Shown here: positions 2,751 through 36,650 of the stretch, piece after piece
Layout: each line of letters begins with the position of its first letter
Position numbering within the stretch: the first letter of the stretch is position 1
Assembly: GCA_046329115.1 (NCBI GenBank)
Contig: JAXLVG010000002.1
Coordinates: 3,714-67,713 of the forward strand
Reading direction: 5' to 3'
Length of the DNA: 64,000 bases
Source: Flavobacteriales bacterium
Lineage (GTDB): Bacteria; Bacteroidota; Bacteroidia; Flavobacteriales_F; PHOS-HE28
Notes under the pieces: model-generated
Seen by the model: only the letters and a program-made list of their open reading frames with translations
Database searches by the model: none
What the model was told of the DNA's origin: nothing
Program-made: the position numbers and the translations under genes

Positions 2751-4516
2751 CGGCGGTCCAGAGCGTCCAACCGTTCGCGCAACCGTTCGATCAGTTCGCG
2801 TTGCTCTTCGATCAAGGCCTGCTGCTCCTGCACGGCCTTCACCAACGGCACAACGAACTCGGCGTACCGCAGGCCGAGCATGCGGTCGCTGTCGGTCACC
2901 TTGTCCACCCCACTGAAATCATAGCCGACCGCCCTCGCCGCCGAGTCCACTTCCTGGGCGATGAAACCGGTGTAGCGGATGGCCTCCTTCTCCCGCCGCG
3001 CCTGTAGGATCTCCTCCGGTCGCTCGCGCGGGATGGGATGTCCGAGGGAGTCCTCGGTGGTGTCCTCCCCAAGGTCCTTCACGATGCGGGCGACATCCAC
3101 ATGGTAGGTGACCGGTCGAAGTTTCAGGATGAAATCAAGACCGCGCACATCCTCGCGCACATCGCGCTTGTAGCGCGCATCGCTGGGCAGCGTGGTCCAG
3201 CCGGCATACCCGCCGATGCTCGTGACAGCGTTGTTGCCCAGCCGCACGCGGTTGCTCCCGTCGAGCACGGTGCCGTAGCCGAGCGCGGTCGCATTGGTGT
3301 AGCCCGCTGCGTTCTGAACGATGGCCGCCCCCACCAAGGTGCTGTTGGTCGCCCCTGCCAGACCTGCCTGGAACCCGATGGCCGTGTTGTAGTTCTGGTT
3401 CGTGATGCCGATGCCGGCCTGGTAGCCGACGGCGGTGTTGTAGTCTCCCGTTACCGTTGCATTGACACCGATGGCCTGGAAGCCGACAGCCGTGTTGTTC
3501 ACCCCTACGGTGTTGTTCCATAGCGCGAATGCCCCGACAGCGGTGTTGTCGACCCCTGTTGAATTGTCCTCGAGCGCTTCAGCACCAACAGCGACGTTGT
3601 AGATGCCCGATGTGTTGGCATAGAGTGCGGTCTGACCCACGGCGGTGTTCCCGTTGGCCACGTTCGTGTATAGCGCACTGCTGCCAACGGCCGTGTTCCC
3701 GGTGCCCAGCACATTCACCCGCAGCGCGTCACTTCCCACGGCCGTGTTGTCCGCACCAACTCCATTGAAGAGCATGGCTTCGGAACCGACGGCCGTGTTG
3801 TCGCTTCCCACGGTGACGTTCATGGCACGGAAGCCCACGGCGGTGTTGTTGCTGGTGCTGAGGTTCAGGTTCAAGGCCTGGCTGCCTACGGCGGTGTTCT
3901 GGCCGCCCGTGGTGTTGGTGGCCAGCGCCTGGCTGCCCAGGGCGGTGTTGTTGTTCGCCGTGGTATTGGCCGTGAGCGCGTTCTTGCCAACGGCCGTGTT
4001 GTTGGTGCCCGTGTTCACCAGCAGGGCGCGGTGGCCCCAGGACGTGGTGGTACCGGACGGTGTGAGGAAACCGCTGCGCTCATTGTCCACCCGCACCTCC
4101 AACTGGTTGTTGTCCGTGGTGCCCAGGAAGTTGGTGCCGAGCGTCATGCCCGCATTGCCAGTGGTGCTCCAGCCACCACCCGCATTGATCAAGCTGGTCC
4201 ACGCTGTACCATTGAAGTACCAGAAGCCGTCCGTGGTGGTGTCATAGACCAGCAGACCGGTCGCGGGTGCTGCAATGGCGGTCCTCTCGGCCGAGGTGAC
4301 CCGGGGGATGAGCACACCGCGCTTCGTGCCGGTGATCGCGCTGCCATCGATATCCAGCAACGCGCTGGGGTGTGGCGCGGAACCATCCACGTTGATGCCG
4401 ATGTTCTGGGCACGGGCGGTCGCCATCCAGGCGCACACGCACAGCGCGGTGATCGCGACCTCGCGGCTCATCCCCCAAAGCACCGCGGAACAGCGGCGCC
4501 GGGCAATAACCCGCAC
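2747..4516 (-). CDS. Tail-fibre domain protein with a C-terminal peptidase S74 intramolecular chaperone domain and NTAVG-type repeats
   Basis: The C-terminus reads [14 protein letters not shown]...[12 protein letters not shown]...[19 protein letters not shown] plus a coiled coil. The N-terminus reads IGINVDGSAPHPSALLDIDGS...LLVYDTTTDGFWYFNGTAWTSL. A probable ATG start near 4470 (MSREV, signal peptide) is an alternative to the GTG at 4516. Confidence 0.8.
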   Translation of the reverse strand: MRVIARRRCSAVLWGMSREVAITALCVCAWMATARAQNIGINVDGSAPHPSALLDIDGSAITGTKRGVLIPRVTSAERTAIAAPATGLLVYDTTTDGFWYFNGTAWTSLINAGGGWSTTGNAGMTLGTNFLGTTDNNQLEVRVDNERSGFLTPSGTTTSWGHRALLVNTGTNNTAVGKNALTANTTANNNTALGSQALATNTTGGQNTAVGSQALNLNLSTSNNTAVGFRAMNVTVGSDNTAVGSEAMLFNGVGADNTAVGSDALRVNVLGTGNTAVGSSALYTNVANGNTAVGQTALYANTSGIYNVAVGAEALEDNSTGVDNTAVGAFALWNNTVGVNNTAVGFQAIGVNATVTGDYNTAVGYQAGIGITNQNYNTAIGFQAGLAGATNSTLVGAAIVQNAAGYTNATALGYGTVLDGSNRVRLGNNAVTSIGGYAGWTTLPSDARYKRDVREDVRGLDFILKLRPVTYHVDVARIVKDLGEDTTEDSLGHPIPRERPEEILQARREKEAIRYTGFIAQEVDSAARAVGYDFSGVDKVTDSDRMLGLRYAEFVVPLVKAVQEQQALIEEQRELIERLRERLDALDRR

Positions 4517-4525
4517 GTGTTAACG
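4502..4525 (-). promoter_or_regulatory. GGCAATAACCCG...CGTGTTAACG operator-like motif upstream of the tail-fibre gene
   Basis: ggcaataacccgcacgtgttaacg is nearly identical to 8605-8628. It shares the half-site CAATAACCCG with the 7-2-7 palindromes at 10332-10347 and 13434-13449 and with the inverted arms at 20477-20518. Confidence 0.4.
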
Positions 4526-6418
4526 CCCTTCCAGCTGCGCGATACGCTTCTCCAGCCGTTCGATGATGGCCTGCTGCTCCTGCACAGCCTTCACCAACGG
4601 CACAACGAACTCGGCGTAGCGCAAGCCGTACAGGCCGTCGGCGCTCGCCGGTCGGTCAACGCCACTGAAGTCATAGCCCAGTGATCGGCTGGCGGCCTCC
4701 ACTTCCTGTGCGATGAAACCGGTGTAGCGGATGCGCGACTGCTCATCGCGCGCTTGGACATCGAGCGGGTCGGTCTTGTGGATCTCCGCGCCGGTGCTGT
4801 CGTAGCGCACGTCCTCCTTCAACTGCGCGGCCAAGCCGTGGGCATCCACGTTGTAGGTGACGGGTCGCAGTTTCAGGATCAGGTCCAAGCCATGCACATC
4901 CTCGCGCACAGCGGTCTTGAAACGGCCATCGCTGTATGTGGTGAAGTTGACTTGCCCCTTGATGCTGGTGATACTGGTGTTGCCCACATGGATGCGGTTG
5001 CTGGCGTCGGGGTGCGCATTGTACCCCAAGGCCATGGCATTGGTGAAATTGCCTGCGGGATAGGCCAGATAGCCCAGGCTGGTGCAGTTGGTGGTGGACA
5101 CGTTGTTACCGGCGTCGTTCCCCACGGCAGTATTGCCGCTTTGTGAAGTGATCGTGCCCAAGGCATATCTGCCCATAGCCGTGTTGAAGGATCCAGAGGT
5201 GAGGTCTTCCATGGCACGGTGGCCGACGCCGGTGTTGAACTCCCCACTATATACCGACTCAAGCGTATATGCACCGACGGCAACGTTCGCCGACGAATTG
5301 TTTCCTGCGAGGTTGGCGTTCCCGCGCAATGCTTGATATCCTATTGCCACGTTGTAGTTTCCGGAGTCACTTTGGTAAAGCGTCTCGAATCCGAGCGCGA
5401 CATTACCGGTCCCCTTGCTTGAGTTCCACATTGCTCTGGCGCCAACCGCCGTGTTCGCCGTAGCATTGCTATTATCCAAGGCATTCGCCCCACAGGCCGT
5501 GTTGTCATTCCCAGCACGGTTGGAACTGAGCGCGTGGTGTCCTACCGCGGTGTTGAACTCTCCCGTGGTATTGAGTGCAAGGGCGAGACTTCCAACTGCG
5601 ACGGAGAATGATTGTCCTGCGCAGTCTCTCAACGCGGCAAAGCCGAACGCGGTACTCACATTGTCCAGCCCTGATGCAAGCGCATCGGTGCCCAATCCAG
5701 TGGACCATTCTGAAACGATCCCAGCGTGTTGATTGTTGACTTTGAAGCGCAACGGCATGTCATCCGTTGTTCCGATGAAGTGCGTTGCCGTATCCGTGCC
5801 CGCATTCCCTTGCAACCCCCACGCATTCAATGCACCATCCGCACCAGCAGGCCCTTGAGGTCCCGCTGCCCCTTGCGGACCTGTGGCACCCATGGGTCCT
5901 GGTGGTCCTTGCGCACCGGTGGCTCCGGTCGCCCCTGTTGCACCAGCTGGACCGGTCGCCCCTTGTGGCCCGGTAGCACCCACGGGACCTTGCGGGCCTG
6001 CGGGACCGGCCGGTCCTTGTGGGCCGGGCGTGTTGCTCGTTTCAGCATGCAGCGCATATGGCACACTGAGCAGTTGGGTCGTGCTGATGGTGACGCCGTT
6101 CACACGGGTGCGTGCGAACCAAGGACCATCGCTCCAGTCGACGGCGGCCCACGAACCGTTCACGGGCGTGCCCTGCCCGAAGGCGAGGTTCACCAAGCCG
6201 AAGTTGTTCGTGGTGGCGGTATGCTCTTCGCTATAGACCACCGGTCCGTTGATCGCGCCCTGCAGCAGCGACAGTTCGATGGCGGCAGGGACGTTCGCTT
6301 GCACCACACCACTGCCATCGCGCACGATGGCCTGGTAGCTGAAGCTCTGCGGCGCTTGGGCGCAAAGGACCGTACAGGTCACCAGCGCGCACATCAAGAA
6401 GGCGGTTCGCTTGCTCAT
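4520..6418 (-). CDS. Collagen-like (Gly-X-Y) tail-fibre domain protein with a peptidase S74 chaperone C-terminus
   Basis: Signal peptide, then a 60+ residue [64 protein letters not shown] tract. NTA(V/I)G repeats follow, and the C-terminus reads [13 protein letters not shown]...[12 protein letters not shown]...[20 protein letters not shown]. Confidence 0.85.
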
Positions 6419-6873
6419 TGGGACACGATGAACGGGATGGTCTGTAGTTCAGTGTTGCTCCCATCGAAGACCCGTAACCGATACGCTCCACTGGCCAGAT
6501 GATCGACGGCCCAAGCATTCGTCGAAGCGTTGATCGGCCATGTGTCGACGTGTTGACCGAGTGCGTTCAGCACGACCGCATGATGGGCCTCGGAAGAGGT
6601 GGTGCTGAGCTGCAGCAGGCCGCGCGTGGGATTGGGATAGAGCTGCCAGTCCGCGATGGATGTGATCGGCACGACGGCCGTGCTGAAGTCGGACGGGGGT
6701 TGATGGAAACCTTGTGTGGCGACCACGTTGGCGGCTGTGCCCGTTGCGACCACGGGCTCACCGATGGTCCATGCGACGCGCAGGCCACCGGACACCCCCT
6801 CGCCACCTGCTGCAGCGGTGACCTGCTGGGCGTGCGACCGGACCGGTAGCAGAAGTGCGATGACAAGGGTCAT
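6415..6873 (-). CDS. Small secreted protein with a T9SS type-A C-terminal sorting domain
   Basis: Signal peptide [17 protein letters not shown]. The C-terminus reads [15 protein letters not shown]...LNALGQHV...ASGAYRLRV...TIPFIVSQ, typical of the Por secretion CTD. The stop overlaps the start of 4520-6418 (ATGA). Confidence 0.7.
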
Positions 6874-6917
6874 GGTCACCCTGCTCACGACCTCCACCAC
6901 ACGAATGCAAGGCATGC

Positions 6918-8560
6918 TCAATGCTTGATGACGGTGGCGGAATGAACGCCCTGTGAGCGCACCAGCACGGTGTATGCTCCGGGCGCCAGCGCGAACAGAT
7001 CAAGGTGCACCAGTTGTTGGCCCGCGCAGGGTCCGCTCAGCAACCGGTCCAACACGCAGCGTCCGGAACTCTCGATCACCTGCAAGCGCACCGCGCCGCT
7101 GGAGCATGGGAAGGTCAGCTGGACATCACCCGTGGTGAACGAGGGCCAAAGCGAGAATGGCGCCCTGGCGGGCACAGGTTCGGCTTGGCCGGTGTTCACC
7201 GGACCCGCATACTTCACCATGGCGATGTGGAACAGGCCGTCGACCTCCGCACGGCCGATGCCCAGGACAGAACCATCGCTGCAGATGACCAGGTGATTGC
7301 AGGTCTCGTCCCCGCCGGCCTCATCATAGTCCGGGGCCTGGAACCCCTCGTTGTAAGAGAGGTCTGAACCCAGGTCTTCCAGTTGCTCCACGTGCCAGTC
7401 CTCCGCACCGGCCGCCGGGGGAACGTTCCCACCGACGAAGATCCTCCCATCATCCGTTACAGCGAGGGCGTTGTACGCATCCTCCCCGATCTCTGTATCC
7501 TGACCTAACGCGTCCAACACGCCCCCCTCCAGATCGAACAACCAGGCTCTCCGTTCCTGGGTACCCCCGCCGATACGACGCACACCGGCCACGACCATGC
7601 GGTCCTCTCCCAGCATTGAAATGGCACGCCCAGAGAGCTCATCGTCCTCATCGGGCAGCTACGACGCACACCGACCATGCGGTCCTCTCCCAGCATTGAA
7701 ATGGCACGCCCAGAGAGCGCATCGTCCTCATCGGGCAGCAGGGTCACGCCATTGCTATTGCCAAAGGTGGATGAGTAGCCGCCACCGGGATCCACATAGC
7801 CTAATAGCAGCGAGGAGTAACCCGAGAAGGCGAACGCGTCACCGCAGAAATAAATGTTCCCGTTGCTCGCGAGGGTGGCCGCGAGCAGTCTGCCTGCTGT
7901 CGCCTCGCTGAGCGTGAACAGGATCGATCCGTCGCCACCGAAGGAGGGGTCGAGGCCACCGTTCTCCAGATAACGCTCGATCACCACCTGGGTCTCCTCC
8001 TCCGTGGGGCCGGTATAGCCGCACAACACCAGCTTTCCGTCAGGCTGCACCAGTACTTCGCGGCACTCCTCGTGCACCGCCGTGCTGTTGATGTCGCGTT
8101 GGATCAGGCCCGTACCGTTGAAGGTCGCATCCAGCGATCCATCCGCCAGGAAGCGGGCGATGAACATGTTGCGCTCGGTGCCGAACTGGTCGTCATGCAT
8201 ATAGCCCCCCACCACGTAACGGCCCTGCGCATCGATCACCATGGAGCGGGCGAACTCCTCCGTCGGTGAAAGATCGTGCACCACCACCCCATTGTTGCCG
8301 AAGGTCATGTCCGGAGCTCCATCCGCCAGGAAGCGCAGGAGCACGGTACGCGAGCCGTCCACGTCCACTGAGCGGCCCACCACAACGATGCGTCCATCCG
8401 CTTGTTCGGCCCCTGTGACCGCTTGATCGGTGCCCGCGTTCCCTAAGGTGGGCACGAGCAATTTGCCATTGTCGCCGAAGGTGGCGTCCCATGCGCCAGT
8501 CTGGGCATGGATCGGCAACACCGCAAGTACCAGGATGTGGATGCAGAACGAACGAGGCAT
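6918..8560 (-). pseudogene. Delta-60 repeat beta-propeller protein with a T9SS CTD, frameshifted by an internal tandem duplication
   Basis: ORFs 7505-8599 (signal peptide plus delta-60 repeats FGDNGK...) and 6918-7616 (T9SS CTD) overlap. Both contain MLGEDRMV at the duplicated segment. The fused sequence matches the intact paralog 8728-10278 (ARSIALQPDGNMVVAGVKRPTGGSQ vs GRAISMLGEDRMVVAGVRRIGGGTQ). Confidence 0.65.
7575..7740. repeat. Tandem direct duplication (86 bp + 80 bp) inside a coding region
   Basis: acgacgcacacc(ggccac)gaccatgcggtcctctcccagcattgaaatggcacgcccagagagc(t/g)catcgtcctcatcgggcagc occurs twice back to back. The second copy lacks 6 bp. The net insertion is 80 bp, which is not a multiple of 3. 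Confidence 0.85.
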
Positions 8561-8604
8561 GGTGCGAGGTTCTGGCTTGCGAAGCACGCTTCGGGACAAG
8601 CGCA

Positions 8605-8628
8605 GGACAATAACCCGAGCGTGTTAAC
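8605..8628 (-). promoter_or_regulatory. CAATAACCCG...CGTGTTAACG operator-like motif upstream of the delta-60 pseudogene
   Basis: gacaataacccgagcgtgttaacg matches 4502-4525 at 22 of 24 positions. Confidence 0.4.
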
Positions 8629-8727
8629 GTGCCGGCATGCGGAGGAACTGGAAGGCCGCCCGGTATGGGGCGGCCTTCCAGGGCTTCATTCATCGGCAGG
8701 GGCGCATGCATGCCACCATCCGTCAGA

Positions 8728-10278
8728 TCATTGCTTCACCACCTTCACCGTTGAGTAGTGTCCAGCGTTTCCGACCCGAAGGCTGTACGTACCGATCGCG
8801 AGATCGTCAAGGGTGATGTCCAACCGACCTCCTTGGCCGAGCGGTTGCGACCAGCGACGGACCGTTCGACCAGCCGGATCGCTCAGAAGAAGATCCACCA
8901 CCGTGCTCGCCCCGTTCGAAAGCGTCAGGGTCGTCCGTTCGGATACCGGATTCGGAGCAACGCTCAATGTACCGTACGTTGATCGCTCCTCGATCGCGGA
9001 AGAGATATCATTCCGGTATTTGATGAGAACGATGTGGTTGAGCCCGGCGACCTCGGCATACCCGATGCCCAGTACGGAACTATCATTGGTGAAGGCCAGG
9101 TCGAAACAGGTCTCCTCGCCGCCATCCTCGTCATAGTCCGTCGTGACGAATGTTCCATCACCGTTGAGCTCCGCATCCCAGCGTTGGACGTTCCAATTCC
9201 GCGAGTCGGGTCCGTCGGCCACGTTGCCGCCGCCAAGGATGGCACCATTGTTCTGGACCAACAGACAGTTCCAGGCATCCGCGCCTTCCGCACTGTTCTG
9301 GAATGCATCCGTCAACTCCAGGCCGTTGGGATCGAACTGGTGGATGATCCGCCCCTGGCTTCCGCCCGTCGGTCGCTTCACCCCGGCGACGACCATGTTG
9401 CCGTCAGGCTGCAGCGCTATGCTGCGGGCAATGAGGTCAGCACCCTCCTCCGATATCCATGAATGGCCACTGGCGTTCCCAAAATCGGTGGGAATGTTGC
9501 CGGCGGCATCGAGATGCCCGAGGAGCAGGGACAAATCGCTCTCGCCCGTACGTGTGGCCAGACCGCAGAAATAGATGTCGCCCGCATCGCCGAGCACAGC
9601 ACTACGCAGCTCCTCACCCGAAGCGTCGCCGATGGAAACAAGCACCGAGCCGTCCCCTCCGAACGTGGGATCCAGGTCGCCATTGTCCAAGTATCGCTCC
9701 AGCACGACCTCGGTAAGTCCGGTGGCCGCGCCGCTGAAACCACACAGAACGATCCGGCCATCGGGCTGCACCAGCACTTCGTAGGCCTCCTCCGCGTCCG
9801 GGGTGCTGTGGATGTCGCGCACCAGGATGCCGGTACCATTGAAGGAAGGGTCCAGCGAACCGTCCGCAAGGAAGCGCGCCACGAACATATCACTGTTGTT
9901 CTCGGCCGCATCGGAGAATAAATGGCCGCCTACGACCAGCCGGCCTTGCCCATCGAGCTCCGCCGAACGGATGAACTCGCTGCCGGCGGCCAGATCGTGC
10001 TGTACCACACCATCGGTACCGTAGGCGAGGTCGGACGACCCATCGGGGTTGAGCCGCAGCAGCACGGTGTTGTAATGGTCGCCGTCACTGCTGCGCCCGG
10101 CCACAAGTATCCGGTCATCCGGCAGCACCACGGCGGTCACGGTCTGATCGTCGTTGCCCCCGCCCAAGGACGGTACCAGGACCTTTCCATTGTCGCCGAA
10201 CGAAGTATCCCAGCTGCCGGGCTGTGCGAGGGCGCCGAGCCCAAGGAAAGCCATCGTCGAAAGTGCAATGCTTCTCAT
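8728..10278 (-). CDS. Delta-60 repeat beta-propeller protein with a T9SS type-A C-terminal sorting domain
   Basis: Signal peptide MRSIALSTMAFLGLGALAQ. Repeats of the form SFGDNGKVLVP...DGSLDPSFNGTG... follow. The C-terminus reads LSVAPNPVSERTTLTLS...GTYSLRV...STVKVVKQ. Confidence 0.8.
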   Translation of the reverse strand: MRSIALSTMAFLGLGALAQPGSWDTSFGDNGKVLVPSLGGGNDDQTVTAVVLPDDRILVAGRSSDGDHYNTVLLRLNPDGSSDLAYGTDGVVQHDLAAGSEFIRSAELDGQGRLVVGGHLFSDAAENNSDMFVARFLADGSLDPSFNGTGILVRDIHSTPDAEEAYEVLVQPDGRIVLCGFSGAATGLTEVVLERYLDNGDLDPTFGGDGSVLVSIGDASGEELRSAVLGDAGDIYFCGLATRTGESDLSLLLGHLDAAGNIPTDFGNASGHSWISEEGADLIARSIALQPDGNMVVAGVKRPTGGSQGRIIHQFDPNGLELTDAFQNSAEGADAWNCLLVQNNGAILGGGNVADGPDSRNWNVQRWDAELNGDGTFVTTDYDEDGGEETCFDLAFTNDSSVLGIGYAEVAGLNHIVLIKYRNDISSAIEERSTYGTLSVAPNPVSERTTLTLSNGASTVVDLLLSDPAGRTVRRWSQPLGQGGRLDITLDDLAIGTYSLRVGNAGHYSTVKVVKQ

Positions 10279-10326: not shown

Positions 10327-10347
10327 GGCAATAACCCGTGCGGGTTA
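10327..10347 (-). promoter_or_regulatory. 7-2-7 inverted repeat TAACCCG-TG-CGGGTTA (NarL/LuxR-type operator candidate)
   Basis: ggcaataacccgtgcgggtta is a perfect heptamer inverted repeat with a 2 bp spacer. It lies between the response-regulator stop and the next gene start. Confidence 0.45.
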
Positions 10348-10350
10348 GGC

Positions 10351-10989
10351 TCACGTCCCGGGATACACCTTCCGGATCGCCTCCATGCGGCCGCTCACCT
10401 GCAGCTTGCTGTAGATGCGGCGCACGTGCACGCGGACCGTCTCGGTGCTCAGATTTAGCTTGTCGGCGATCTCCTTGTACTGCAGACCAGCGGCCAGCCC
10501 ATCGAGCACCTGCTTCTCCCGTTCGCTCAGCTTGTCGTCGTTGATGCGCTGCTGGGTCTCCTTCTGGAAACTGTTCACCACCAACCTGGCGATGGCGCTG
10601 TTCATGGGTGAGCCACCCCGGTGGATGTCGCGGACGGCCTCGAGCAGCTCCTCGGCCGGGGTGCTCTTCAGCAGGTAGCCGGTGGCCCCTGAGCACAAGG
10701 CCTCGAAGATGTACGCCGGGTTCTCGAAGATGGTGAGCATCAGGTACTGCACCTCCGGCTTCAGGCGCTTCGCCTCCCGTACGGTGTCGATGCCGTTCCG
10801 CCCCTCCATGTTGATGTCCATCAGCACCACGTGCAGCTCCAGCTCGGGCAGCTTGTCCAGGTACGCATCACCGCTCTCGAAGACGCGCACCACCTGCATG
10901 TCCCCGGCCCGTTCGATGCGCCGGCGGATGAGCGCACGCAGCTCATCGTCGTCCTCCACGATGGCGATGCGGATGGGGGATGCGGCCAT
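10351..10989 (-). CDS. NarL/LuxR-family response regulator (REC + HTH)
   Basis: MAASPIRIAIVEDDDELRALI...VVLMDINMEG...GATGYLLKS..., then LSEREKQVLDGLAAGLQYKEIADKLNLSTETVRVHVRRIYSKL. The long ORF upstream of MAASP is an opposite-strand GC artefact. Confidence 0.85.
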   Translation of the reverse strand: MAASPIRIAIVEDDDELRALIRRRIERAGDMQVVRVFESGDAYLDKLPELELHVVLMDINMEGRNGIDTVREAKRLKPEVQYLMLTIFENPAYIFEALCSGATGYLLKSTPAEELLEAVRDIHRGGSPMNSAIARLVVNSFQKETQQRINDDKLSEREKQVLDGLAAGLQYKEIADKLNLSTETVRVHVRRIYSKLQVSGRMEAIRKVYPGT

Positions 10990-11018: not shown

Positions 11019-13370
11019 TCAGGGGAGCTCCATCCGCAGGTGGATGCGCGTGCCCCGGCCATCGCCGCTTTCCACCGTGAGGCGGGCCCCGCAGCGTTCC
11101 GCACGGTGCCGCATGTTCTCCAGGCCGTGCCCCTCCACCTTGTCCGCCCCGATGCCCGAACCGTTGTCCTTCACGTCGAACGCGAGCGTGGTCGGGCTCG
11201 TGTGGAAGCGCACCTCGATCCGCGCGGCCCGGGCATACTTGATCGCGTTGTTCAGCGCTTCGCGGAAGATCAGGTAGATGTCGCGCTTCACCGCCGGGTC
11301 CAGCGTGCGATCCGCGCCTTCGTGCGCGCAGTCGATGCTGTGCTCCACCTTGCCCCACTTGAGCATGCGCTCGGCATGGGCGCGCACGCGCTCGGTGAGC
11401 CCCGCCAGCGAATCGTGGTGCGGATCGATGGACCAGACGATGTCGCCCAGGGAGCGGTTGGCCTCCCCGGCGATGCGCTCGATGTCGTCGGCCAGGGCGG
11501 GCACGGCCCGCACGTCGCTCTGCGCGAGCTCCCTGGCCTCGGTGCTCAGCAGCACGAGCTTGGTGAGGTCGCTGCCGAGCTGGTCGTGCACATCGCGCGC
11601 GATGCGCGTGCGTACTTCGGAGGCCTCGCGCGCCCGCTCGCTCTCCAACAGCCGGGCCTGCGCCTCCAGGATGGCCGCGTTCTTCTCCGCGAGCGCACGA
11701 CGGCTGCGGCGTGCGTTGCGCAGGAGCAGGAAGAGGAGCGCCCCCACCACGGCCACCACGCCGAAGCCCGCGGCCAGAAACAGGTTACGCCGGCGGTGGG
11801 CCGCGAGCTCGCTTTCCTGCGCGGCGTTCGTGGCGGACAGCTCCTCCAGTTCGGCATCCTTGCGTTCCGAGGCGAAGCGGACGTTCAAGGCGTTCAGGTC
11901 CTTGATGCGCTCCAGGTCCAGCAGGCTGTCCTTGGCGGTGAGGTAGAGCCGAAGGGAGGCCAGGGCCTCCGTCGTGTTGCCGTTCGCCTGATGCACTTCG
12001 TGCTGCGCGAACAGGGCATCGCGCCAGGTCTCCAGCCAGCCTTCGCGGGTAGCGAGGGCGATGAGGGTGTCCAGGTCGCCAAGGGCGGCACGGCGATCGG
12101 CCGCATCGCCATGCGCCAGGATCCGCGCGTGCTCCACCCGCAGCCACGCCCGATCGATGCGCAGCCCGGGATGTTGGGCGAGCGCGAGGCCCTCCCCGAT
12201 GTAGGCCCGGGCCTGACCGAAGCGCCCCAGCCGACGGCACACCTTGCCCAGGTCCAGCAGGATGGCCGCCTCCTCAACGCGCTCGCCCTGCACCATGGTG
12301 ACCGCCTGCGGGCCGCGCATCAGCTCCAGCGCCCGCTGCAGGGACCGCAATGCGGTATCCAGCCTGCCCAGCTCCAGGAGGCAGGCACCATAGGTGCCCA
12401 GCAGCGTCGCCTTGACGTGCGCCTGTTCGACCCCCTCCAGAAGGTCGAGCGCCTCCTTCAAATGCGCCAGCGCCGAGGCGCGATCCCCGAAGTCGATGTG
12501 GAGCTCCGCGAGCTCCCGGCCGGTCTCCACGATCATGGCGTTCGACCGCAGCATCTTGGACAGCGCGTGTGCGCGAAGGGCGTCCCGCAGGGCCAGGTCC
12601 TGATCGGCCAGTTCGTTCGCGGCGAAGGCGCGCATGCGGCAGGCCGCGCGCTCGTGCAGGAGCGCGCCGGTGCGCTGGATGAGCGCTTCCGCAACGGCGC
12701 AATGGTGCAGGGTGCGCATGAACGCCTCGGTGGTGATGGCCTCCATGGCACTGTCCAGCTGCAGCTGGATGAGCAGGAAGGTGTCGCGCGAGGCGGTGAT
12801 GACCTCCGCGATGCGATCGCTGGCGCGTTGCACCGTTTCCGGGTCGGCCGATCCACCATACTTGGTAACGCCCAGTGCCCAGTAGAGGCCCGTGGCCGAA
12901 CGGTGGCGTTCGAACGCTTCGAGCGCCTTGGCGTAGTGCACAAGCGCCACGCTGTCCTCGCCTGCATCCTCGCAACGGTCGATGTACAGGCACCAATGCG
13001 CGTAACCCAGGTCCTCCTGCGGTCCATGCTGGGTGAGCAGCCGCAGGGCCCGTTCCAGTTCCGCCGCCTCACCGCCATAATATCCGCTCGTCTGCCTGGC
13101 CGCCACCCGGCGCGTGATCGCACTGCCCAGCAACGAAGGGTCGTTGAGGCGCTCGGCCAGCGCGATCGCCTCCTGCGCCGCCTCCATCGCGCTCACCGGG
13201 TCCGTATCGCGCTGGTACCATGCCAGGCGTTCCAGCTTGCGCGCCCGGTCGGCATCGCTCAAACGCGCATTCGCCAGTTCGCGCTGGAGCCTGCCGATGT
13301 TGACGGCCTGCGCCAACGCCCCGTGCCAGGGCGCAAGCAGCAGCAGGAGGACAAGGGCACGGCCGGTCAT
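11019..13370 (-). CDS. Sensor histidine kinase with periplasmic TPR repeats, HisKA_3 and HATPase_c (HK-A)
   Basis: Signal/TM1 MTGRALVLLLLLAPWHGALAQ, TPR-like region, TM2 LFLAAGFGVVAVVGALLFLLL, then RIARDVHDQLGSDLTKL and ...ALNNAIKYA...VKDNGSGIG...GHGLENMRHRAE. It lies directly upstream of the RR. Confidence 0.85.
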   Translation of the reverse strand: MTGRALVLLLLLAPWHGALAQAVNIGRLQRELANARLSDADRARKLERLAWYQRDTDPVSAMEAAQEAIALAERLNDPSLLGSAITRRVAARQTSGYYGGEAAELERALRLLTQHGPQEDLGYAHWCLYIDRCEDAGEDSVALVHYAKALEAFERHRSATGLYWALGVTKYGGSADPETVQRASDRIAEVITASRDTFLLIQLQLDSAMEAITTEAFMRTLHHCAVAEALIQRTGALLHERAACRMRAFAANELADQDLALRDALRAHALSKMLRSNAMIVETGRELAELHIDFGDRASALAHLKEALDLLEGVEQAHVKATLLGTYGACLLELGRLDTALRSLQRALELMRGPQAVTMVQGERVEEAAILLDLGKVCRRLGRFGQARAYIGEGLALAQHPGLRIDRAWLRVEHARILAHGDAADRRAALGDLDTLIALATREGWLETWRDALFAQHEVHQANGNTTEALASLRLYLTAKDSLLDLERIKDLNALNVRFASERKDAELEELSATNAAQESELAAHRRRNLFLAAGFGVVAVVGALLFLLLRNARRSRRALAEKNAAILEAQARLLESERAREASEVRTRIARDVHDQLGSDLTKLVLLSTEARELAQSDVRAVPALADDIERIAGEANRSLGDIVWSIDPHHDSLAGLTERVRAHAERMLKWGKVEHSIDCAHEGADRTLDPAVKRDIYLIFREALNNAIKYARAARIEVRFHTSPTTLAFDVKDNGSGIGADKVEGHGLENMRHRAERCGARLTVESGDGRGTRIHLRMELP

Positions 13371-13401: not shown

Positions 13402-13453
13402 GCAATCACCCATGCGGGTGAAGCGACCGGATCAACCCGAACGGGTTATGGCG
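13402..13453. promoter_or_regulatory. Divergent-promoter operator pair (GGCAATCACCC...CAACCCG-AA-CGGGTTATGGC)
   Basis: aacccgaacgggtt is a perfect 7-2-7-type palindrome. The arm sequences match those at 20477-20518. The site lies between HK-A and the divergent novel-CTD gene. Confidence 0.4.
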
Positions 13454-13503
13454 CACCACCGTCCCGACAGGAAGCTTTGCCGTTGATCAATGCTCCACAG
13501 CCG

Positions 13504-16311
13504 ATGAACCGGACATGCACCCTTCTGCTCTGCATCGCGACCGCGCAGCTCGCATCCGCACAGCAATACCCGCTCGACAGTCTTTGCTGGGGACTTACCG
13601 GCAGCGGCATCGCGATCCTGGAGGACACCGTGCACGACCGGATCTTCGTGGGGGGTGACTTCGTACAGGTGCGCGACCCGCGGGAGCTTGAGAACTGCGT
13701 GGAGTTCAACGCGACCAGCGGGCTCGTGGTGCGGCAGTCGCCGAACCCGGACGGGGCGGTGCGGTGCGCGCTGCCCGATGGCGCCGGGGGCTGGTACATC
13801 GGCGGTGACTTCAGCGTGGTCGGCGGCCTGCCACGCGCCCGCCTCGCCCACGTCCTGCCGGACGGCTCTGTGGCGGCATGGGCCCCGGTGGTGGTGGGTT
13901 CGGTGCGCACCATGCTCATCAAAGGCGACACCCTGTACTTCGGTGGCGGCCTCACCACCGTGAACGGTGCGGCACGGACCAACCTGGCGGCCGTGCGCCG
14001 CTCCACCGGCACCAATGTGGCATGGACCCAGGCCACGGCGAACGACACGGTGCGGTGCATGGCCCTGAACAGCGGCCGGCTCTACGTGGGTGGCGACTTC
14101 ACGCAGGTGAACGGATCGGCGCGATCGCGCATCGCTTCCTTCACCGTAAGCAACCACGCGCTCACCACCTGGGCACCCACCGTGGACGACAAGGTGCGCT
14201 GTGCCATCGCAACCGCATCTGCCGTGTACATCTGCGGCGACCTCACCACGGTGAACGGCATCGCGCGCGGTGGCGCCGCATCGTTGAACCCGACGGGCAA
14301 CTTCGTGCTGAACTGGAACCCGAACACGAACGGAACGGTGAACTGCATGGCCCTCTCCGGGTCGTCCATCCTGCTCGGGGGCACGTTCACGCAGGTGAAC
14401 GGTTCCACGCGCAACCGCATCGCCATTGTTTCGGCCGGCACCATAGCGTCGCTGTCAACGTGGACCAAGGACCTCGACGGTGCTGTGGAAGGCATCGCCG
14501 TGCTGAACGATGTGGTCTATGCGACCGGCGCGTTCGAGCGTGTGGATGCCGTATTCCGCCACCGCTTGGTGGCGTTGGGGCTGCCGGGCACCGCCGCGCC
14601 GGCCATCGGCGATTGGCGCGCGAGCGTTCACGGCGAGGCCGCATGGTGCATCGCGGCGCAGGGGTCGGGCATTTTCGTCGGCGGTGCGTTCTCCCGTTGC
14701 GGACTGTCGCGCCGGAGCATCGCCGCTTATGATCAAACCACCGGACTTCCCTTGCCCTGGGACCCGGGGGTGAACGGCGAGGTGCGCTCGCTGGCCCAGG
14801 GCGCTGACGGTACTGTGTACGCCGCCGGGTCGTTCACTTCAGTGGGGGGCGTTGCGCGTGCGAACATGGTGGCCCTCGACCCCCTCACCGGTGCGGTGCT
14901 TTCGTGGAGCGGCGGCGCCACCCTGGGCGATGTGAACGCCATCGTTGTGAGCGGCGATACCCTGGTGGCCTGTGGCACCTTCGCCTTCCTGGGCGGAACG
15001 CCCCGCCTGGGCCTCGGAGCGTTGTCGCGCACCACCGCGGCGGTGCTTCCATGGAACCTGCCGGTGGCGCCCGGCGACGAGCCGAAGAAGCTGTTGCTCC
15101 GCCGGGATACGCTGTACGTGTGCGGCCACATCACCGCCGTTGGCAGTACGGGGCGCAACGCAGTGGCGGCCATCCGCCTCTCCACCGGTACCGTGCTCCC
15201 GTTCGCCGCCGATTGTGCAGCAGGAAGTTCGGCGCAGCAGATGGCCTTGGACGGTGACCGGCTCTGGGTGGGCCGCGTTGATGGCATCTGGGGAGGTGAG
15301 AACATACTCTCGTGGGACCTTCTTGTGCTGAACGCGTACACCGGCGCCATTCTGCCTCGCCAACCCATGGAAGGGAACGCCCTGGCCGTGCGTGGCAACA
15401 AGGTCTTCAGCGGCCAGGCCTACCTCGCCGCCCGGGATGCCGCAACAGGCTGGCTCACCGGGAGCAGCCTCGGGCAGAGCTGCGGGGGTGCGTTGCTGTT
15501 CTCGGAAAGCGGCGACCTGCTTTGTGCAGGCGTGGCGGATAATATCCCCTCCAACAAGGGTTTCTTCCGTGTGCGCATCGATCCGAGCATCTCCATCCGC
15601 GTCATGCTCGATGGACCCTTCAGCACCGGCACCATGACCCCCACCCTGAACGATCTCGGCCTGTTGCCGACCACCGAGCCTTACACGTCCCTGGGCTACA
15701 TGCATACGGGCGGTGGTGGCGGCGAGGTCGCTGGTTCCGCGCTCAACTTCCCGTCGAGCGGCATCATCGACTGGATCGTCGTCGAATACCGGGATGCGGT
15801 GGACCCGTCCATCGTGGTCGCTTCCGCGAGCCGATTGCTCTACTCCAACGGCCGCGTGGAACGGGCGGGGGGTATCAGCATCCCGACCTTCGCCGCCGAT
15901 CCCAACGGCCAGTACCACGTGGCCGTGCGCCACCGCAACCACCTGGGCGTGATGACCGCACAACCGGTGGACTTCTCCACCAGCCCCTTCATCGACTTCA
16001 CGGCGCAGAGCACGGCGGTATTCGGCACTGATACCCGGAAGAACAACAGCGGTACCCTGTGCCTGTGGGCCGGTGATGTGAACTTCGACGGAACGATCAA
16101 GTACACCGGAAGCAACAACGACCGCGACCCCATCCTGGTGAGCATCGGGGGCACCACGCCGAACAGTGTCTTGAGCGGCATGTACAGCGCGGCCGATGTG
16201 AACATGGATGGTCTGGTGAAGTACACCGGCAATAAGAACGATCGCGATCAGGTGCTGCTGAGCATCGGCGGCACCACGCCGAACAGCACGCGCACCGACC
16301 AGCTGCCGTGA
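13504..16311 (+). CDS. Secreted delta-60/beta-propeller repeat protein with the novel RHRNHL/twin dockerin-like C-terminal module (ends ...TDQLP)
   Basis: Signal peptide MNRTCTLLLCIATAQLASAQ. It has many GGDFTQVNG...R.RLA roughly 60 aa repeats. The C-terminal roughly 247 aa (about 15568-16311) is the conserved module. The ORF portion 13114-13503 overlaps HK-A on the other strand and is rejected. Confidence 0.8.
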   Translation: MNRTCTLLLCIATAQLASAQQYPLDSLCWGLTGSGIAILEDTVHDRIFVGGDFVQVRDPRELENCVEFNATSGLVVRQSPNPDGAVRCALPDGAGGWYIGGDFSVVGGLPRARLAHVLPDGSVAAWAPVVVGSVRTMLIKGDTLYFGGGLTTVNGAARTNLAAVRRSTGTNVAWTQATANDTVRCMALNSGRLYVGGDFTQVNGSARSRIASFTVSNHALTTWAPTVDDKVRCAIATASAVYICGDLTTVNGIARGGAASLNPTGNFVLNWNPNTNGTVNCMALSGSSILLGGTFTQVNGSTRNRIAIVSAGTIASLSTWTKDLDGAVEGIAVLNDVVYATGAFERVDAVFRHRLVALGLPGTAAPAIGDWRASVHGEAAWCIAAQGSGIFVGGAFSRCGLSRRSIAAYDQTTGLPLPWDPGVNGEVRSLAQGADGTVYAAGSFTSVGGVARANMVALDPLTGAVLSWSGGATLGDVNAIVVSGDTLVACGTFAFLGGTPRLGLGALSRTTAAVLPWNLPVAPGDEPKKLLLRRDTLYVCGHITAVGSTGRNAVAAIRLSTGTVLPFAADCAAGSSAQQMALDGDRLWVGRVDGIWGGENILSWDLLVLNAYTGAILPRQPMEGNALAVRGNKVFSGQAYLAARDAATGWLTGSSLGQSCGGALLFSESGDLLCAGVADNIPSNKGFFRVRIDPSISIRVMLDGPFSTGTMTPTLNDLGLLPTTEPYTSLGYMHTGGGGGEVAGSALNFPSSGIIDWIVVEYRDAVDPSIVVASASRLLYSNGRVERAGGISIPTFAADPNGQYHVAVRHRNHLGVMTAQPVDFSTSPFIDFTAQSTAVFGTDTRKNNSGTLCLWAGDVNFDGTIKYTGSNNDRDPILVSIGGTTPNSVLSGMYSAADVNMDGLVKYTGNKNDRDQVLLSIGGTTPNSTRTDQLP

Positions 16312-20471: not shown

Positions 20472-20476
20472 CGAGC

Positions 20477-20518
20477 GGCCAATAACCCGACGGGGTTAAT
20501 ACGCACGGGTTATTGGCC
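20477..20518. promoter_or_regulatory. 13 bp inverted-repeat operator GGCCAATAACCCG-N16-CGGGTTATTGGCC in a 75 bp divergent promoter region
   Basis: The arms are perfectly inverted. The site lies between HK-B (minus) and 20547-23417 (plus). Confidence 0.45.
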
Positions 20519-20546
20519 GCGGGCCCGCGATCGCGAACGTTTGTGC

Positions 20547-32502: not shown

Positions 32503-33138
32503 CTACGCCAGTCCCTTGCGGATCGCCAGCGCCACCGCCTCACTCGCGCTTTGCACACGCAGCTTGGCGTACACGTTGCTCACGTGCTTGTTCACCGTGG
32601 CATACGCGATGTTCAGGTCGCTGGCGATGTGCTTGTAGGTGTGCCCCAGCACCAGCAGGTTCAGGATCTGGCGCTCGCGCTCGCTCAGGTGGAACTCATC
32701 GGAGGAGGCCGGTGCGGGGCCGTGCTTCATCAGCTTCAGCACGCGGCGCGCGATGCTCGGCGTCATGGGCGCACCGCCCTCGAGCACCTCCCGGATGCCC
32801 TCGATCAGCCGCATGGGCTCCGTCTGCTTCAGGAAGTAGCCGTCCGCCCCGGCGCTGATGGCGGCGAAGATCCGGGCATCGTCCTCGATCACCGTGAGCA
32901 TGATGATGGGCAGCTGCGGAAAGCGCGCCCGCAGCAGGGCGGCCGCCTGCACGCCATCCACGCCCGGCATGTCGATGTCCATCAGCACCACCTGCGGCGT
33001 GCAGCCCTCCACATCGCGGATGGCGTTGCGGGCGCTGGGGAAGGCCCCCACGCACTCCAGGTCGGTCACTGAACCGATCACAGCCTCCAGCCCCTCGCGT
33101 TGCGCGCGGCTGTCGTCGAAAAGGGCGACGCGGATCAT
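32503..33138 (-). CDS. NarL/LuxR-family response regulator
   Basis: MIRVALFDDS...VVLMDIDMPGVDG..., then LSERERQILNLLVLGHTYKHIASDLNIAYATVNKHVSNVYAKL. Confidence 0.85.
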   Translation of the reverse strand: MIRVALFDDSRAQREGLEAVIGSVTDLECVGAFPSARNAIRDVEGCTPQVVLMDIDMPGVDGVQAAALLRARFPQLPIIMLTVIEDDARIFAAISAGADGYFLKQTEPMRLIEGIREVLEGGAPMTPSIARRVLKLMKHGPAPASSDEFHLSERERQILNLLVLGHTYKHIASDLNIAYATVNKHVSNVYAKLRVQSASEAVALAIRKGLA

Positions 33139-33186
33139 GGGGGCAAAGGTCCGCACGGGGTGGCGGCGCGGCAATACCTGAGTTCA

Positions 33187-36282: not shown

Positions 36283-36339
36283 GCCGCAAGATATCCGCAC
36301 AACGTCCATACTTCCCGCACACAGGTGCTCACACAACGC

Positions 36340-36650
36340 CACACATTCACTCCGTGCCTCCGTGTGAACCCGCATTCGCATTTCTCCGTGCCTCCGTGTC
36401 TCCGTGTGAGCCCTCTCCTCCCTCCGTGGGTCCGTGTGACCTCGGCATTCCCTCCGTGTCCCCGTGCCTCCGTGTGAACCCGCATTCGCATTTCTCCGTG
36501 TCTCCGTGCCTCAGTCTGAGCCTGTATTCGCATTCTCCTTGCGTCCACATTCGCATTTCTCCGTGCCTCCGTGTGAACCCGCATTCGCATTTCTCCGTGT
36601 CTCCGTGCCTCCGTGTGAGCTCATGTCCACCGTGCCTCCTTCCCCCAGGT
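36340..36650. repeat. CTCCGTG-rich degenerate direct-repeat block in a divergent intergenic region
   Basis: Three copies of about 34-40 nt (ccgtgcctccgtgtgaacccgcattcgcatttctccgtg) at about 36350, 36462 and 36566. The intervening sequence is built from the same ctccgtg and attcgcatt submotifs. Confidence 0.8.

What the first reader, a model, noticed from the sequence alone, without database searches (positions are those of the whole stretch)
10327..10347. Candidate regulon operator: 7-2-7 inverted repeat TAACCCG-NN-CGGGTTA (half-site GGCAATAACCCG) upstream of at least five genes
Near-perfect copies are:
- 10332-10347, taacccg tg cgggtta, upstream of the delta-60/T9SS gene.
- 13434-13449, caacccg aa cgggtta, plus ggcaatcaccc-atg-cgggtg at 13402-13421, in the HK-A / novel-CTD-A divergent region.
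- 20477-20518, arms ggccaataacccg and cgggttattggcc 16 nt apart, in the 75 bp HK-B / novel-CTD-B divergent region.
- 4502-4525 and 8605-8628, (g)caataacccg.(a/g)cgtgttaacg, upstream of the tail-fibre operon and the delta-60 pseudogene.

All sit 5-55 nt upstream of minus-strand start codons. The heptamer 7-2-7 geometry is the hallmark of NarL/FixJ-family binding sites. A NarL/LuxR response regulator (10351-10989, cognate to HK-A) is encoded right here. This suggests one two-component system controls the kinases, cyclases, propeller proteins and tail-fibre operon of this locus.
Basis: partly seen in the sequence, partly recalled or inferred. Interest (0 to 1): 0.6.

Follow-up and report, generated by a model that had tools for sequence, protein, structure and literature searches.

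The report
Conserved response-regulator operator beside seven promoters
A 16-bp palindrome (TAACCCG-NN-CGGGTTA) sits directly upstream of seven promoters in one gene cluster of an uncultured wastewater Flavobacteriales bacterium and is conserved in related species, so it is most likely the binding site of the NarL-type response regulator encoded in the cluster: a real but ordinary kind of regulatory element.

Summary
TAACCCGNNCGGGTTA (≤2 mismatches) occurs 6 times in the window against 0.10 expected. This resolves into 7 oriented copies in 5 intergenic regions between 4.5 and 20.5 kb.

The heptamer arm belongs to the palindrome. The GGCAAT part, found only on the gene-proximal side, is the -33 TTG of a Bacteroidota-type sigma-A promoter. 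Every copy is followed by TTG, a 21-nt non-conserved spacer, then nnCTT(T/C)G (the -7 box), then a start codon 3-25 nt later. That predicts a palindrome centre near -43.5, the position of the E. coli NarL 7-2-7 site at yeaR.

The same architecture lies upstream of orthologous genes (tail-fibre-like proteins, DUF5122 propellers, TPR histidine kinases) in 6 related MAGs and 15 metagenome contigs. Spacer identity there is about random. Exact-pattern hits in those relatives all fall inside the homologous cluster, which suggests a small, mainly local regulon.

The only DNA-binding protein in the cluster is a NarL/FixJ-family response regulator. Its recognition helix is TVRVHVRR, against NarL TVKVHVKH. 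Binding and activation are inferred, not shown.

Verdict: new member of a known kind, of modest interest.

The parts
10332..10347 (-). Operator 3: perfect palindrome TAACCCGCACGGGTTA. It lies 3 nt after the RR stop codon and upstream of the DUF5122+T9SS-CTD propeller gene. -33 TTG at 10331-10329, -7 box TGTTTTG at 10307-10301, predicted TSS about 10296.
   Evidence: Orthologous sites lie directly after the RR gene in L016, L018, L072, L076, L118, L133, L135, L140 and L146 and in L124 and L145.
4507..4522 (-). Operator 1: TAACACGTGCGGGTTA (read on the minus strand). It overlaps the stop codon of gene 4520-6418. -33 TTG at 4506-4504, -7 box TGCTTTG at 4482-4476. The predicted TSS coincides with ATG 4471 (leaderless). 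It drives the fibre1 and TPR-cyclase A genes.
   Evidence: Orthologous sites lie upstream of fibre1 orthologues in 8 loci.
8611..8626 (-). Operator 2: TAACACGCTCGGGTTA. -33 TTG at 8610-8608, -7 box TGCTTCG at 8586-8580. It lies upstream of DUF5122 gene 7505-8560, which is followed by genes 6918-7616, 6415-6921 and 4520-6418.
13406..13421 (-). Operator 4: TCACCCGCATGGGTGA. -33 TTG at 13405-13403, -7 box ACCTTCG at 13381-13375. The predicted TSS is at ATG 13370 (leaderless). It drives the HK-A and RR operon, so this would be autoregulation.
   Evidence: Orthologous sites lie upstream of HK-A orthologues in L018, L072, L110 and L118.
13433..13448 (+). Operator 5: CAACCCGAACGGGTTA. The -33 element is TGG at 13449-13451 (weak). 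-7 box AGCTTTG at 13473-13479. It lies upstream of the large DUF5122 protein A, which starts at 13504.
20483..20498 (-). Operator 6: TAACCCCGTCGGGTTA. -33 TTG at 20482-20480, -7 box ACCTTTG at 20458-20452. The predicted TSS is at GTG 20447 (leaderless). It drives HK-B and TPR-cyclase B.
20497..20512 (+). Operator 7: TAATACGCACGGGTTA, overlapping operator 6 by 2 bp. -33 TTG at 20513-20515, -7 box ACGTTTG at 20537-20543. It lies upstream of the large DUF5122/Rax2 protein B, with ATG at 20547 (leaderless).
10351..10989 (-). NarL/FixJ-family response regulator (REC + GerE/LuxR HTH, 212 aa). It is the candidate binder. Recognition helix TVRVHVRRIY.
11019..13370 (-). HK-A: signal peptide, TPR, HisKA_3 and HATPase_c histidine kinase, in an operon with the RR.
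18450..20447 (-). HK-B: a second TPR-HisKA_3 kinase. It is followed by TPR-adenylate/guanylate cyclase B (16391-18457), with which it overlaps.
645..4471 (-). Target operon: fibre1 (2747-4471; Peptidase_S74 chaperone domain, PTL_trimer) plus TPR-cyclase A (645-2750).
4520..10278 (-). Target genes:
- DUF5122+CTD propeller (8728-10278), ended by a terminator hairpin at 8645-8672
- DUF5122 (7505-8560)
- unknown gene (6918-7616)
- T9SS-CTD protein (6415-6921)
- collagen/Peptidase_S74 fibre2 (4520-6418)
13504..16311 (+). Target gene: large secreted DUF5122 beta-propeller protein A.
20547..23417 (+). Target gene: large secreted DUF5122/Rax2 beta-propeller protein B.

Best explanation
The palindrome TAACCCG-NN-CGGGTTA is the operator of a dimeric NarL/FixJ-family response regulator. 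The most likely binder is the one encoded at 10351-10989, phosphorylated by the TPR-HisKA_3 kinases of the cluster.

Each operator directly abuts the -33 TTG of a Bacteroidota sigma-A promoter. The layout is TTG, then 21 nt, then nnCTTTG, and the predicted TSS lies 5 nt after the final G of the box. This places the operator at about -51 to -36, centred near -43.5.

From that position the phosphorylated regulator most likely activates seven promoters:
- the HK-A and RR operon, which would be positive autoregulation
- HK-B with cyclase B
- two large propeller proteins
- two DUF5122 gene sets
- the fibre1 and cyclase A operon

Together this forms a small, mainly cluster-local regulon of T9SS-secreted or surface proteins and cNMP cyclases.

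Shown here: the motif, its enrichment, its fixed geometry relative to a second conserved block and to start codons, its conservation upstream of orthologous genes, and the family of the regulator.

Inferred: the TSS positions, binding by this regulator, and activation rather than repression.
For: 1. **Enrichment.** 6 hits against 0.10 expected. PWM scores are 27-35 bits against at most 19.8 in simulated windows.
2. **An independent second block.** Among 23 oriented sites from the window and 6 related MAGs, positions 42-48, which were not used to pick the sites, read TGCTTTG: T45 in 21/23, T46 in 22/23, G48 in 20/23. The 21-nt spacer carries about 0 bits.
3. **This is the general promoter form here.** TTG-N20-22-nnnTTTG occurs 13 times against 3.3 expected. 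The hits include genes without the palindrome, at 33174(-), 36665(+) and 27450(+). The Bacteroidetes consensus is -7 TAnnTTTG and -33 TTTG (PMC2483708, PMC7366714). In F. psychrophilum the box lies at -12 to -5 (PMC9723704).
4. **Footprinting.** In 35 unique sites, pairwise identity is 0.82 for the motif, 0.67 for the box and 0.31 for the spacer. The sites precede orthologues of fibre1 (8 loci), the propeller+CTD gene (5), HK-A (4), HK-B (2) and the large propellers (2), at 40-90% protein identity.
5. **Locality.** The genome-contig scan gave 104 stretches. Eight of them, from 6 related MAGs, all lie in loci homologous to this cluster; the rest are singletons in unrelated taxa. The metagenome scan gave 15 of 30 stretches homologous to the cluster; the others are mostly low-GC.
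6. **The regulator.** It has REC + GerE domains. Its best solved relatives are VraR, DesR and NarL, with E 1e-24 to 1e-26. Its helix aligns as TVRVHVRR to NarL TVKVHVKH. NarL Lys188, Val189 and Lys192 make the base contacts (PMC10853779), so the equivalent residues here are R/V/R.
7. **Geometry matches NarL.** NarL prefers 7-2-7 sites (PMC4549865). The yeaR site TAACCAATAAATGGTA is centred at -43.5, just upstream of the -35 element (PMC10853779).
8. **Motif-unbiased loci.** Loci fetched through RR homologues show a split. The four with helix RVHVRR (L140, L144, L145, L146) all carry the motif. The five with helix RKHVR(N/H) or RVHVRK carry none at ≥20 bits. Four RK-type loci, three of those five (L143, L147, L148) plus the motif-fetched L125, instead carry a TAC(C/T)AC…GTA element in the same place.
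9. **Half-site behaviour.** Deviations from the palindrome are one-sided in 26 cases and compensatory in 2, as expected for protein half-sites.
Against: - No binding or expression data exist.
- TSSs are predicted from the -7 box only.
- The -33 TTG is very well conserved, whereas activator-dependent promoters often have poor upstream elements. This leaves repression possible.
- The proximal arm plus TTATTG is better conserved than the distal arm, so part of the 'operator' signal could be promoter signal.
- The helix/operator co-variation rests on few loci and has exceptions. L144 (RVHVRR) has TACTACA-CA-CGGGGTA after its RR. L125 combines an RK-type RR with TAACCCG-type sites.
- 'Local regulon' rests on a strict exact pattern that recovers only 4 of the 7 window sites, and on incomplete MAGs.
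Confidence: 0.65

Rival explanations
1. It is a genuine operator, but it is used for repression, or it is bound by a different unlinked transcription factor rather than by the adjacent response regulator.
For: The -33 TTG and the -7 TTTG are near the local consensus at most sites, so the promoters might be active without help. A dimer at -51 to -36 could hinder contacts by sigma region 4 or the alpha subunit. L125 pairs TAACCCG sites with an RK-type RR. Many other TF families also bind 16-bp palindromes.
Against: The RR is the only DNA-binding protein conserved in the cluster. A site precedes its own operon. The 7-2-7 geometry, the TAACC start of the heptamer and the -43.5 position all match NarL activation sites (PMC10853779, PMC4549865). 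The other LuxR-type RR in the window has a different helix, TVNKHVSN.
Confidence: 0.22
2. The conserved block is not a factor-binding site. It is an extended upstream promoter element (UP-like, or an alternative/ECF sigma -35 region) recognised directly by RNA polymerase.
For: The motif has a fixed register with the -33 and -7 elements in every copy. The gene-proximal arm fused to TTATTG is the best-conserved part.
Against: The -7 box and the spacing are the same as in non-regulon promoters that lack the palindrome, which argues for the housekeeping sigma. Two-fold symmetry has no role in sigma or alpha-CTD recognition. ECF promoters have distinct downstream elements.
Confidence: 0.07
3. It is a structural or selfish palindrome: a terminator hairpin, a REP/MITE-like repeat, a recombinase site, or a leftover of segmental duplication of paralogous promoters.
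For: Two copies lie at or within 3 nt of the upstream gene's stop codon (4507, 10332). The cluster contains paralogous gene pairs. The 20470-20525 region folds well, with z -5.4.
Against: Single palindromes fold no better than shuffles (z -1.4, -0.1, +0.2), whereas the real terminator at 8645-8672 has z -7.1. Copies in divergent regions lie upstream of both predicted TSSs, so they would not be transcribed. Compensatory changes are few, 2 against 26 one-sided. Spacers are at random identity, 0.31, so this is not recent duplication. No copies were found outside the cluster in related genomes.
Confidence: 0.04

Closest known systems
E. coli NarL/NarP 7-2-7 heptamer sites (for example yeaR TAACCAATAAATGGTA at -43.5; ogt and napF at -44.5)
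   Same: Both are inverted heptamers separated by 2 bp and bound, in the known case, by a dimer of a REC+GerE regulator partnered with a HisKA_3 kinase. Both lie immediately upstream of the promoter's upstream element. The heptamer starts TAACC in both. The recognition helix is TV(R/K)VHV(R/K) in both.
   Different: The heptamer ends -CCG rather than the NarL consensus. The helix has Arg where NarL has Lys188 and Lys192. The promoter is of the Bacteroidota -33/-7 type, not -35/-10. The kinases are TPR proteins with no nitrate-sensing domain. The regulon comprises secreted propeller and fibre proteins and cyclases. Nothing has been tested experimentally.
LuxR/TraR-type lux and tra boxes (18-20-bp palindromes centred near -42.5)
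   Same: Both involve a GerE/LuxR HTH dimer on a palindrome overlapping or abutting the upstream promoter element, in a class-II-like activation geometry. This comparison is from my own knowledge.
   Different: Those regulators are ligand-binding, not phosphorylation-controlled, and their palindromes are longer.
Bacteroidota sigma-A (sigma-ABfr) promoters: -33 TTTG and -7 TAnnTTTG
   Same: The TTTG core of the -7 box and an upstream TTG lie about 20 nt apart. Leaders are short or absent, and no Shine-Dalgarno sequence is evident.
   Different: The TA of TAnnTTTG is not conserved in this high-GC lineage, where the box reads (T/A)(G/C)CTTTG. The spacer is rigidly 21 nt between TTG and the 7-mer. 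An unusually large share of start codons sit 4-5 nt after the box.

Membership tests
NarL/FixJ (LuxR-type HTH) response-regulator operator | Two-fold symmetric site made of two heptamers in inverted orientation with a 2-bp spacer (7-2-7) | tested here: met
   The consensus is TAACCCG-NN-CGGGTTA over 35 unique sites. NarL's preference for 7-2-7 sites is reported in PMC4549865.
NarL/FixJ (LuxR-type HTH) response-regulator operator | A regulator with REC and GerE/LuxR HTH domains, plus a HisKA_3 kinase, encoded with the sites | tested here: met
   Pfam scans. PDB relatives VraR, DesR and NarL. The arrangement is conserved in L140 and L144-L146.
NarL/FixJ (LuxR-type HTH) response-regulator operator | Base-contacting residues of the recognition helix compatible with a NarL-like heptamer | tested here: inconclusive
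   The alignment gives R/V/R at NarL positions Lys188/Val189/Lys192 (PMC10853779). The substitutions are conservative, but specificity cannot be computed from this.
NarL/FixJ (LuxR-type HTH) response-regulator operator | Physical binding of the phosphorylated regulator to the site | not testable with these tools
   This needs EMSA, footprinting or DAP-seq.
NarL/FixJ (LuxR-type HTH) response-regulator operator | Operator sequence changes together with the regulator's recognition helix across paralogues | tested here: inconclusive
   Of 11 RVHVRR-type loci, 10 have TAACCCG..CGGGTTA directly after the RR. Of 5 RK-type loci, 4 have a TAC(C/T)AC-type element there and 1 has none. Exceptions are L144 and L125.
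Class-II-like activator site (centre about -41.5 to -44.5) | Site centre 41-45 bp upstream of a mapped transcription start | tested here: inconclusive
   The centre comes out at -43.5 if the -7 box occupies -12 to -5 as in F. psychrophilum (PMC9723704). No TSS has been mapped for this organism.
Bacteroidota sigma-A promoter | A -7 TAnnTTTG box and a -33 TTTG/TTG about 19-21 nt upstream | tested here: met
   The TTTG core and the TTG are met with a fixed spacer. The TA dinucleotide is not conserved: canonical TAnnTTTG occurs only twice in the window.
Intrinsic terminator / REP-like structural palindrome | A stable hairpin, compensatory changes that keep pairing, and location at 3' ends or dispersed through the genome | tested here: not met
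   z-scores are -1.4 to +0.2. There are 2 compensatory against 26 one-sided changes. No copies lie outside the cluster in related genomes.

The most novel reading that the evidence does not exclude
The cluster may be one of a family of self-contained, autoregulated 'surface-remodelling' islands in uncultured high-GC Flavobacteriales. In this reading, paralogous TPR-kinase and NarL-type regulator pairs have diversified together with their operators: helix RVHVRR with TAACCCG, and helix RKHVR(N/H) with TAC(C/T)AC. Each operator would be fused in a rigid register to a mostly leaderless sigma-A promoter. Each system would drive T9SS-secreted propeller proteins and phage-tail-fibre-like collagen proteins, together with cNMP cyclases. 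If so, this is a natural set of orthogonal operator/regulator pairs, and the first defined activator-dependent promoter architecture for this phylum.
Probability: 0.25. Interest if true: 0.55.

Novelty: new member of a known kind. Interest (0 to 1): 0.35.

Why it matters
Transcription activation in Bacteroidota is poorly defined: the primary sigma factor and its -33/-7 promoter differ from the E. coli model. Here an uncultured lineage offers a clean, conserved promoter-operator module with a fixed register and an obvious candidate regulator. That gives a directly testable model of how a NarL-type regulator works on a Bacteroidota promoter. It also ties a set of secreted propeller proteins, tail-fibre-like proteins and cyclases of unknown role into one regulatory unit. 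Apart from that, it is a standard two-component regulon.

Tried and rejected
- **RNA hairpin or terminator reading.** Folding of three palindromes is no better than shuffles.
- **Canonical TAnnTTTG search.** It found only 2 hits, so I relaxed to the TTTG core with fixed spacing.
- **tRNA scan.** It gave two over-long calls inside coding regions, which I treat as false positives.
- **Greedy longest-ORF gene calling.** It picked wrong strands in this high-GC DNA. I replaced it with codon-position GC and Pfam.
- **Second LuxR-type RR (32503-33147) as the binder.** Unlikely, because its recognition helix differs.
- **Recent duplication as the source of motif similarity.** Rejected, because the spacers are at random identity.
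- **Genome-wide regulon.** Not supported by the exact-pattern scans, though their sensitivity is limited.
- **Helix/operator co-variation.** Suggestive only.
- **Literature search for a prior description of this motif or regulon.** It found nothing relevant.

Full report
**1.

The pattern TAACCCGNNCGGGTTA with up to two mismatches occurs six times in the 64-kb window, against 0.10 expected. None of 100 shuffles reached six. The matches are at 4507, 8611, 10332 (perfect), 13433, 20483 and 20497. A seventh, more degenerate copy is at 13406-13421.

A 22-nt weight matrix scores the seven sites at 27-35 bits, or 17.8-30.3 bits leave-one-out. The best hit in 20 simulated windows was 19.8 bits. Nothing else in the window exceeds 17 bits except reverse readings of the same palindromes.

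All copies are intergenic and all lie between 4.5 and 20.5 kb.

**2. The genes around it**

Pfam scans and start-codon placement give this map.

| Coordinates | Strand | Gene |
|---|---|---|
| 645-2750 | - | TPR-adenylate/guanylate cyclase A |
| 2747-4471 | - | tail-fibre-like protein (Peptidase_S74 chaperone domain) |
| 4520-6418 | - | collagen/Peptidase_S74 protein |
| 6415-6921 | - | T9SS-CTD protein |
| 6918-7616 | - | unknown |
| 7505-8560 | - | DUF5122 propeller |
| 8728-10278 | - | DUF5122 + T9SS CTD |
| 10351-10989 | - | REC+GerE response regulator |
| 11019-13370 | - | TPR-HisKA_3 kinase A |
| 13504-16311 | + | large DUF5122 protein A |
| 16391-18457 | - | TPR-cyclase B |
| 18450-20447 | - | TPR-HisKA_3 kinase B |
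| 20547-23417 | + | large DUF5122/Rax2 protein B |

The source is an uncultured high-GC (about 65%) 'Flavobacteriales bacterium' found in metagenome assemblies; several related MAG names point to wastewater plants.

**3. The motif is directional and part of a promoter module**

When each copy is read toward the gene it precedes, the gene-proximal arm always continues as CGGGTTA-TTG-(S)C. The distal arm has no such extension.

I aligned 23 oriented sites from the window and six related MAGs on the motif. This reveals a second conserved block that played no part in choosing the sites. Positions 42-48 read TGCTTTG, with T45 in 21/23, T46 in 22/23 and G48 in 20/23. It is separated from TTG by a 21-nt spacer with essentially no information.

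Start codons follow 3-25 nt later. In five of the seven window promoters the gap is only 3-4 nt.

The same TTG-N21-nnnTTTG arrangement precedes genes in the window that lack the palindrome. Examples are the second response regulator at 33174(-), the gene at 36665(+), and 27450(+). The pattern occurs 13 times against 3.3 expected.

This matches the Bacteroidetes primary-sigma promoter, with -7 TAnnTTTG and -33 TTTG (PMC2483708, PMC7366714). The leading TA is not conserved in this lineage.

In Flavobacterium psychrophilum the box occupies -12 to -5 (PMC9723704). Applying that register here gives:
- TTG at -35 to -33
- the palindrome at -51 to -36
- the palindrome centre at -43.5

These positions are inferred. 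No TSS has been mapped for this organism.

**4. Conservation in other species**

*Genome scan.* One exact-pattern scan of 185,579 species genomes returned 104 stretches. Ninety-six are singletons in unrelated taxa, about the number expected by chance for a 32-bit pattern in 596 Gb. The other eight stretches, from six related Flavobacteriales/Bacteroidota MAGs, all lie in loci homologous to this cluster at 65-88% DNA identity.

*Metagenome scan.* A scan with the motif plus the TTYG box returned 30 stretches. Fifteen are homologous to the cluster. The other fifteen show no homology to the window, and all but two are low-GC.

*What the sites precede.* In these loci the sites lie upstream of orthologues of the following genes, at 40-90% protein identity:
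- fibre1, in 8 loci
- the propeller+CTD gene, in 5
- kinase A, in 4
- kinase B, in 2
- the large propellers, in 2

*Footprint.* Over 35 unique sites, mean pairwise identity is 0.82 in the motif, 0.67 in the box and 0.31 in the spacer. The spacer value is near the random expectation for this base composition. This is a clear phylogenetic footprint. It also rules out recent duplication as the cause of the similarity.

*Locality.* Every exact hit in the related genomes falls inside the cluster, so the regulon appears small and local. The caveat is that the exact pattern recovers only four of the seven window sites, and MAGs are incomplete.

**5. Protein site, not nucleic-acid structure**

- The palindromes fold no better than shuffled sequence (z -1.4, -0.1, +0.2). 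The genuine terminator hairpin at 8645-8672 has z -7.1.
- In the divergent regions the palindromes lie upstream of both predicted TSSs, so they would not be transcribed.
- Departures from the consensus are one-sided in 26 cases (19 distal, 7 proximal). They are compensatory in only 2.
- This pattern fits two protein half-sites of unequal quality, not a stem.

**6. The likely binder**

The cluster encodes one DNA-binding protein, the 212-aa REC+GerE regulator, in an operon with kinase A.

Its closest solved relatives are VraR, DesR and NarL, with E 1e-24 to 1e-26. Its recognition helix aligns as TVRVHVRR to NarL TVKVHVKH. NarL Lys188, Val189 and Lys192 make the base contacts (PMC10853779), so the equivalent residues here are Arg, Val and Arg.

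The comparison with NarL sites:
- NarL prefers inverted heptamers separated by 2 bp (PMC4549865).
- The yeaR site TAACCAATAAATGGTA is centred at -43.5, just upstream of the -35 element, and activates by a non-canonical class II mode (PMC10853779).
- The ogt and napF sites lie at about -44.5 (PMC10853779, PMC4549865).
- The element here shares the 7-2-7 geometry, the TAACC start of the heptamer and the predicted position.
- One site precedes the kinase A and regulator operon, as expected for an autoregulated two-component system.

The other LuxR-type regulator in the window (32503-33147) has a different helix, TVNKHVSN.

**7. A partial test of the regulator-operator link**

I fetched nine loci through regulator homologues, so they were not selected for the motif.

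| Helix type | Loci | Result |
|---|---|---|
| RVHVRR | L140, L144, L145, L146 | all carry motif sites; L145 has four promoter sites, including a divergent pair |
| RKHVR(N/H) or RVHVRK | L141, L142, L143, L147, L148 | none carries a site of ≥20 bits |

Three of the RK-type loci (L143, L147, L148), plus the motif-fetched L125, have a different element in the same place. It reads TAC(C/T)AC…GTA, abuts TTG-N21-box and lies directly after the regulator's stop codon.

This is what co-evolution of helix and operator would predict. The numbers are small, however, and there are exceptions:
- L144 has a hybrid site after its regulator.
- L125 combines an RK-type regulator with TAACCCG-type sites upstream of neighbouring fibre genes.

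**8. Mechanism proposed**

The TPR kinases sense an unknown periplasmic or surface cue and phosphorylate the regulator. A regulator dimer then binds at about -43.5 and helps sigma-A RNA polymerase at seven promoters. This switches on the kinases and the regulator itself, the two cyclases (as downstream operon members), four DUF5122 propeller proteins and the fibre-like proteins.

My estimates, which are inference and not measurement:
- The element is a functional transcription-factor site: about 0.9.
- The binder is this regulator: about 0.7.
- The effect is activation rather than repression: about 0.6.

The well-conserved TTG is the main reason to keep repression open.

**9. Comparison and novelty**

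The element works like, and probably belongs with, NarL/FixJ-family 7-2-7 operators.

It differs in four respects:
- the heptamer sequence
- the host promoter type
- the TPR kinases
- the regulon content

I found no prior description. It is a new member of a known kind.

It is useful as a defined activator-promoter module for Bacteroidota and for linking a set of uncharacterised secreted proteins. It is not surprising in principle.

Noticed in passing
window 4471, 13370, 20447, 20547; also 30838, 33147, 39823 region: Many start codons sit only 3-5 nt after the -7 TTTG box, which predicts leaderless mRNAs. This applies to 5 of the 7 regulon promoters and to several unrelated genes. The gap distribution in the window and related loci peaks at 4-5 nt, with 13 cases against about 2 per other bin. 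Leaderless or near-leaderless mRNAs are only about 4-5.5% in B. thetaiotaomicron and F. psychrophilum (PMC7366714, PMC9723704), so this lineage may use them far more often.
   Followed up: partly
L143 10646-10700; L147 10636-10700; L148 3475-3535; L125 after 10675: A paralogous regulator subfamily (63-71% identical, helix TVRKHVR(N/H)) has a different element, TAC(C/T)AC…GTA, in the same register against TTG-N21-box directly after its stop codon. This may be a set of orthogonal regulator/operator pairs.
   Followed up: partly
window 8645-8672: A strong GC-rich hairpin (13-bp stem, -29 kcal/mol, z -7.1) lies downstream of gene 8728-10278. It is the likely terminator separating that gene from the next regulated promoter, although no T-run follows it.
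   Followed up: partly
window 7592-7739: An 80-bp unit is duplicated in tandem at 98% identity, where ORFs 7505-8560 and 6918-7616 overlap.
   Followed up: no
window 36350-36607: A degenerate repeat array (period 34-42, 5-7 copies, units like CTCCGTGCCTCCGTGTGAACCCGCATTCGCATTT) lies in the divergent region between gene 33187-36381(-) and gene 36619(+).
   Followed up: no
window 51869-52984: About five copies of a 222-bp repeat lie inside the giant ORF 49670-56455(-). They are probably repeated Ig-like domains of a very large surface protein.
   Followed up: no
window 15841-15939 and 54829-54924: ARAGORN reports two over-long 'tRNAs' (96-99 nt) inside coding regions. They are probably false positives.
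   Followed up: no
window 20470-20525: The two back-to-back operators of the 75-bp divergent region together form a 15-bp perfect inverted repeat (GGCCAATAACCCG…CGGGTTATTGGCC, z -5.4). I read this as a by-product of two mirrored promoter-operator modules. A cruciform or shared-occupancy effect was not examined.
   Followed up: partly
L144 3612-9971: In one relative, three TPR-HisKA_3 kinases in tandem precede the regulator, and at least two of them have their own operator. The number of kinases feeding this regulator varies between species.
   Followed up: no
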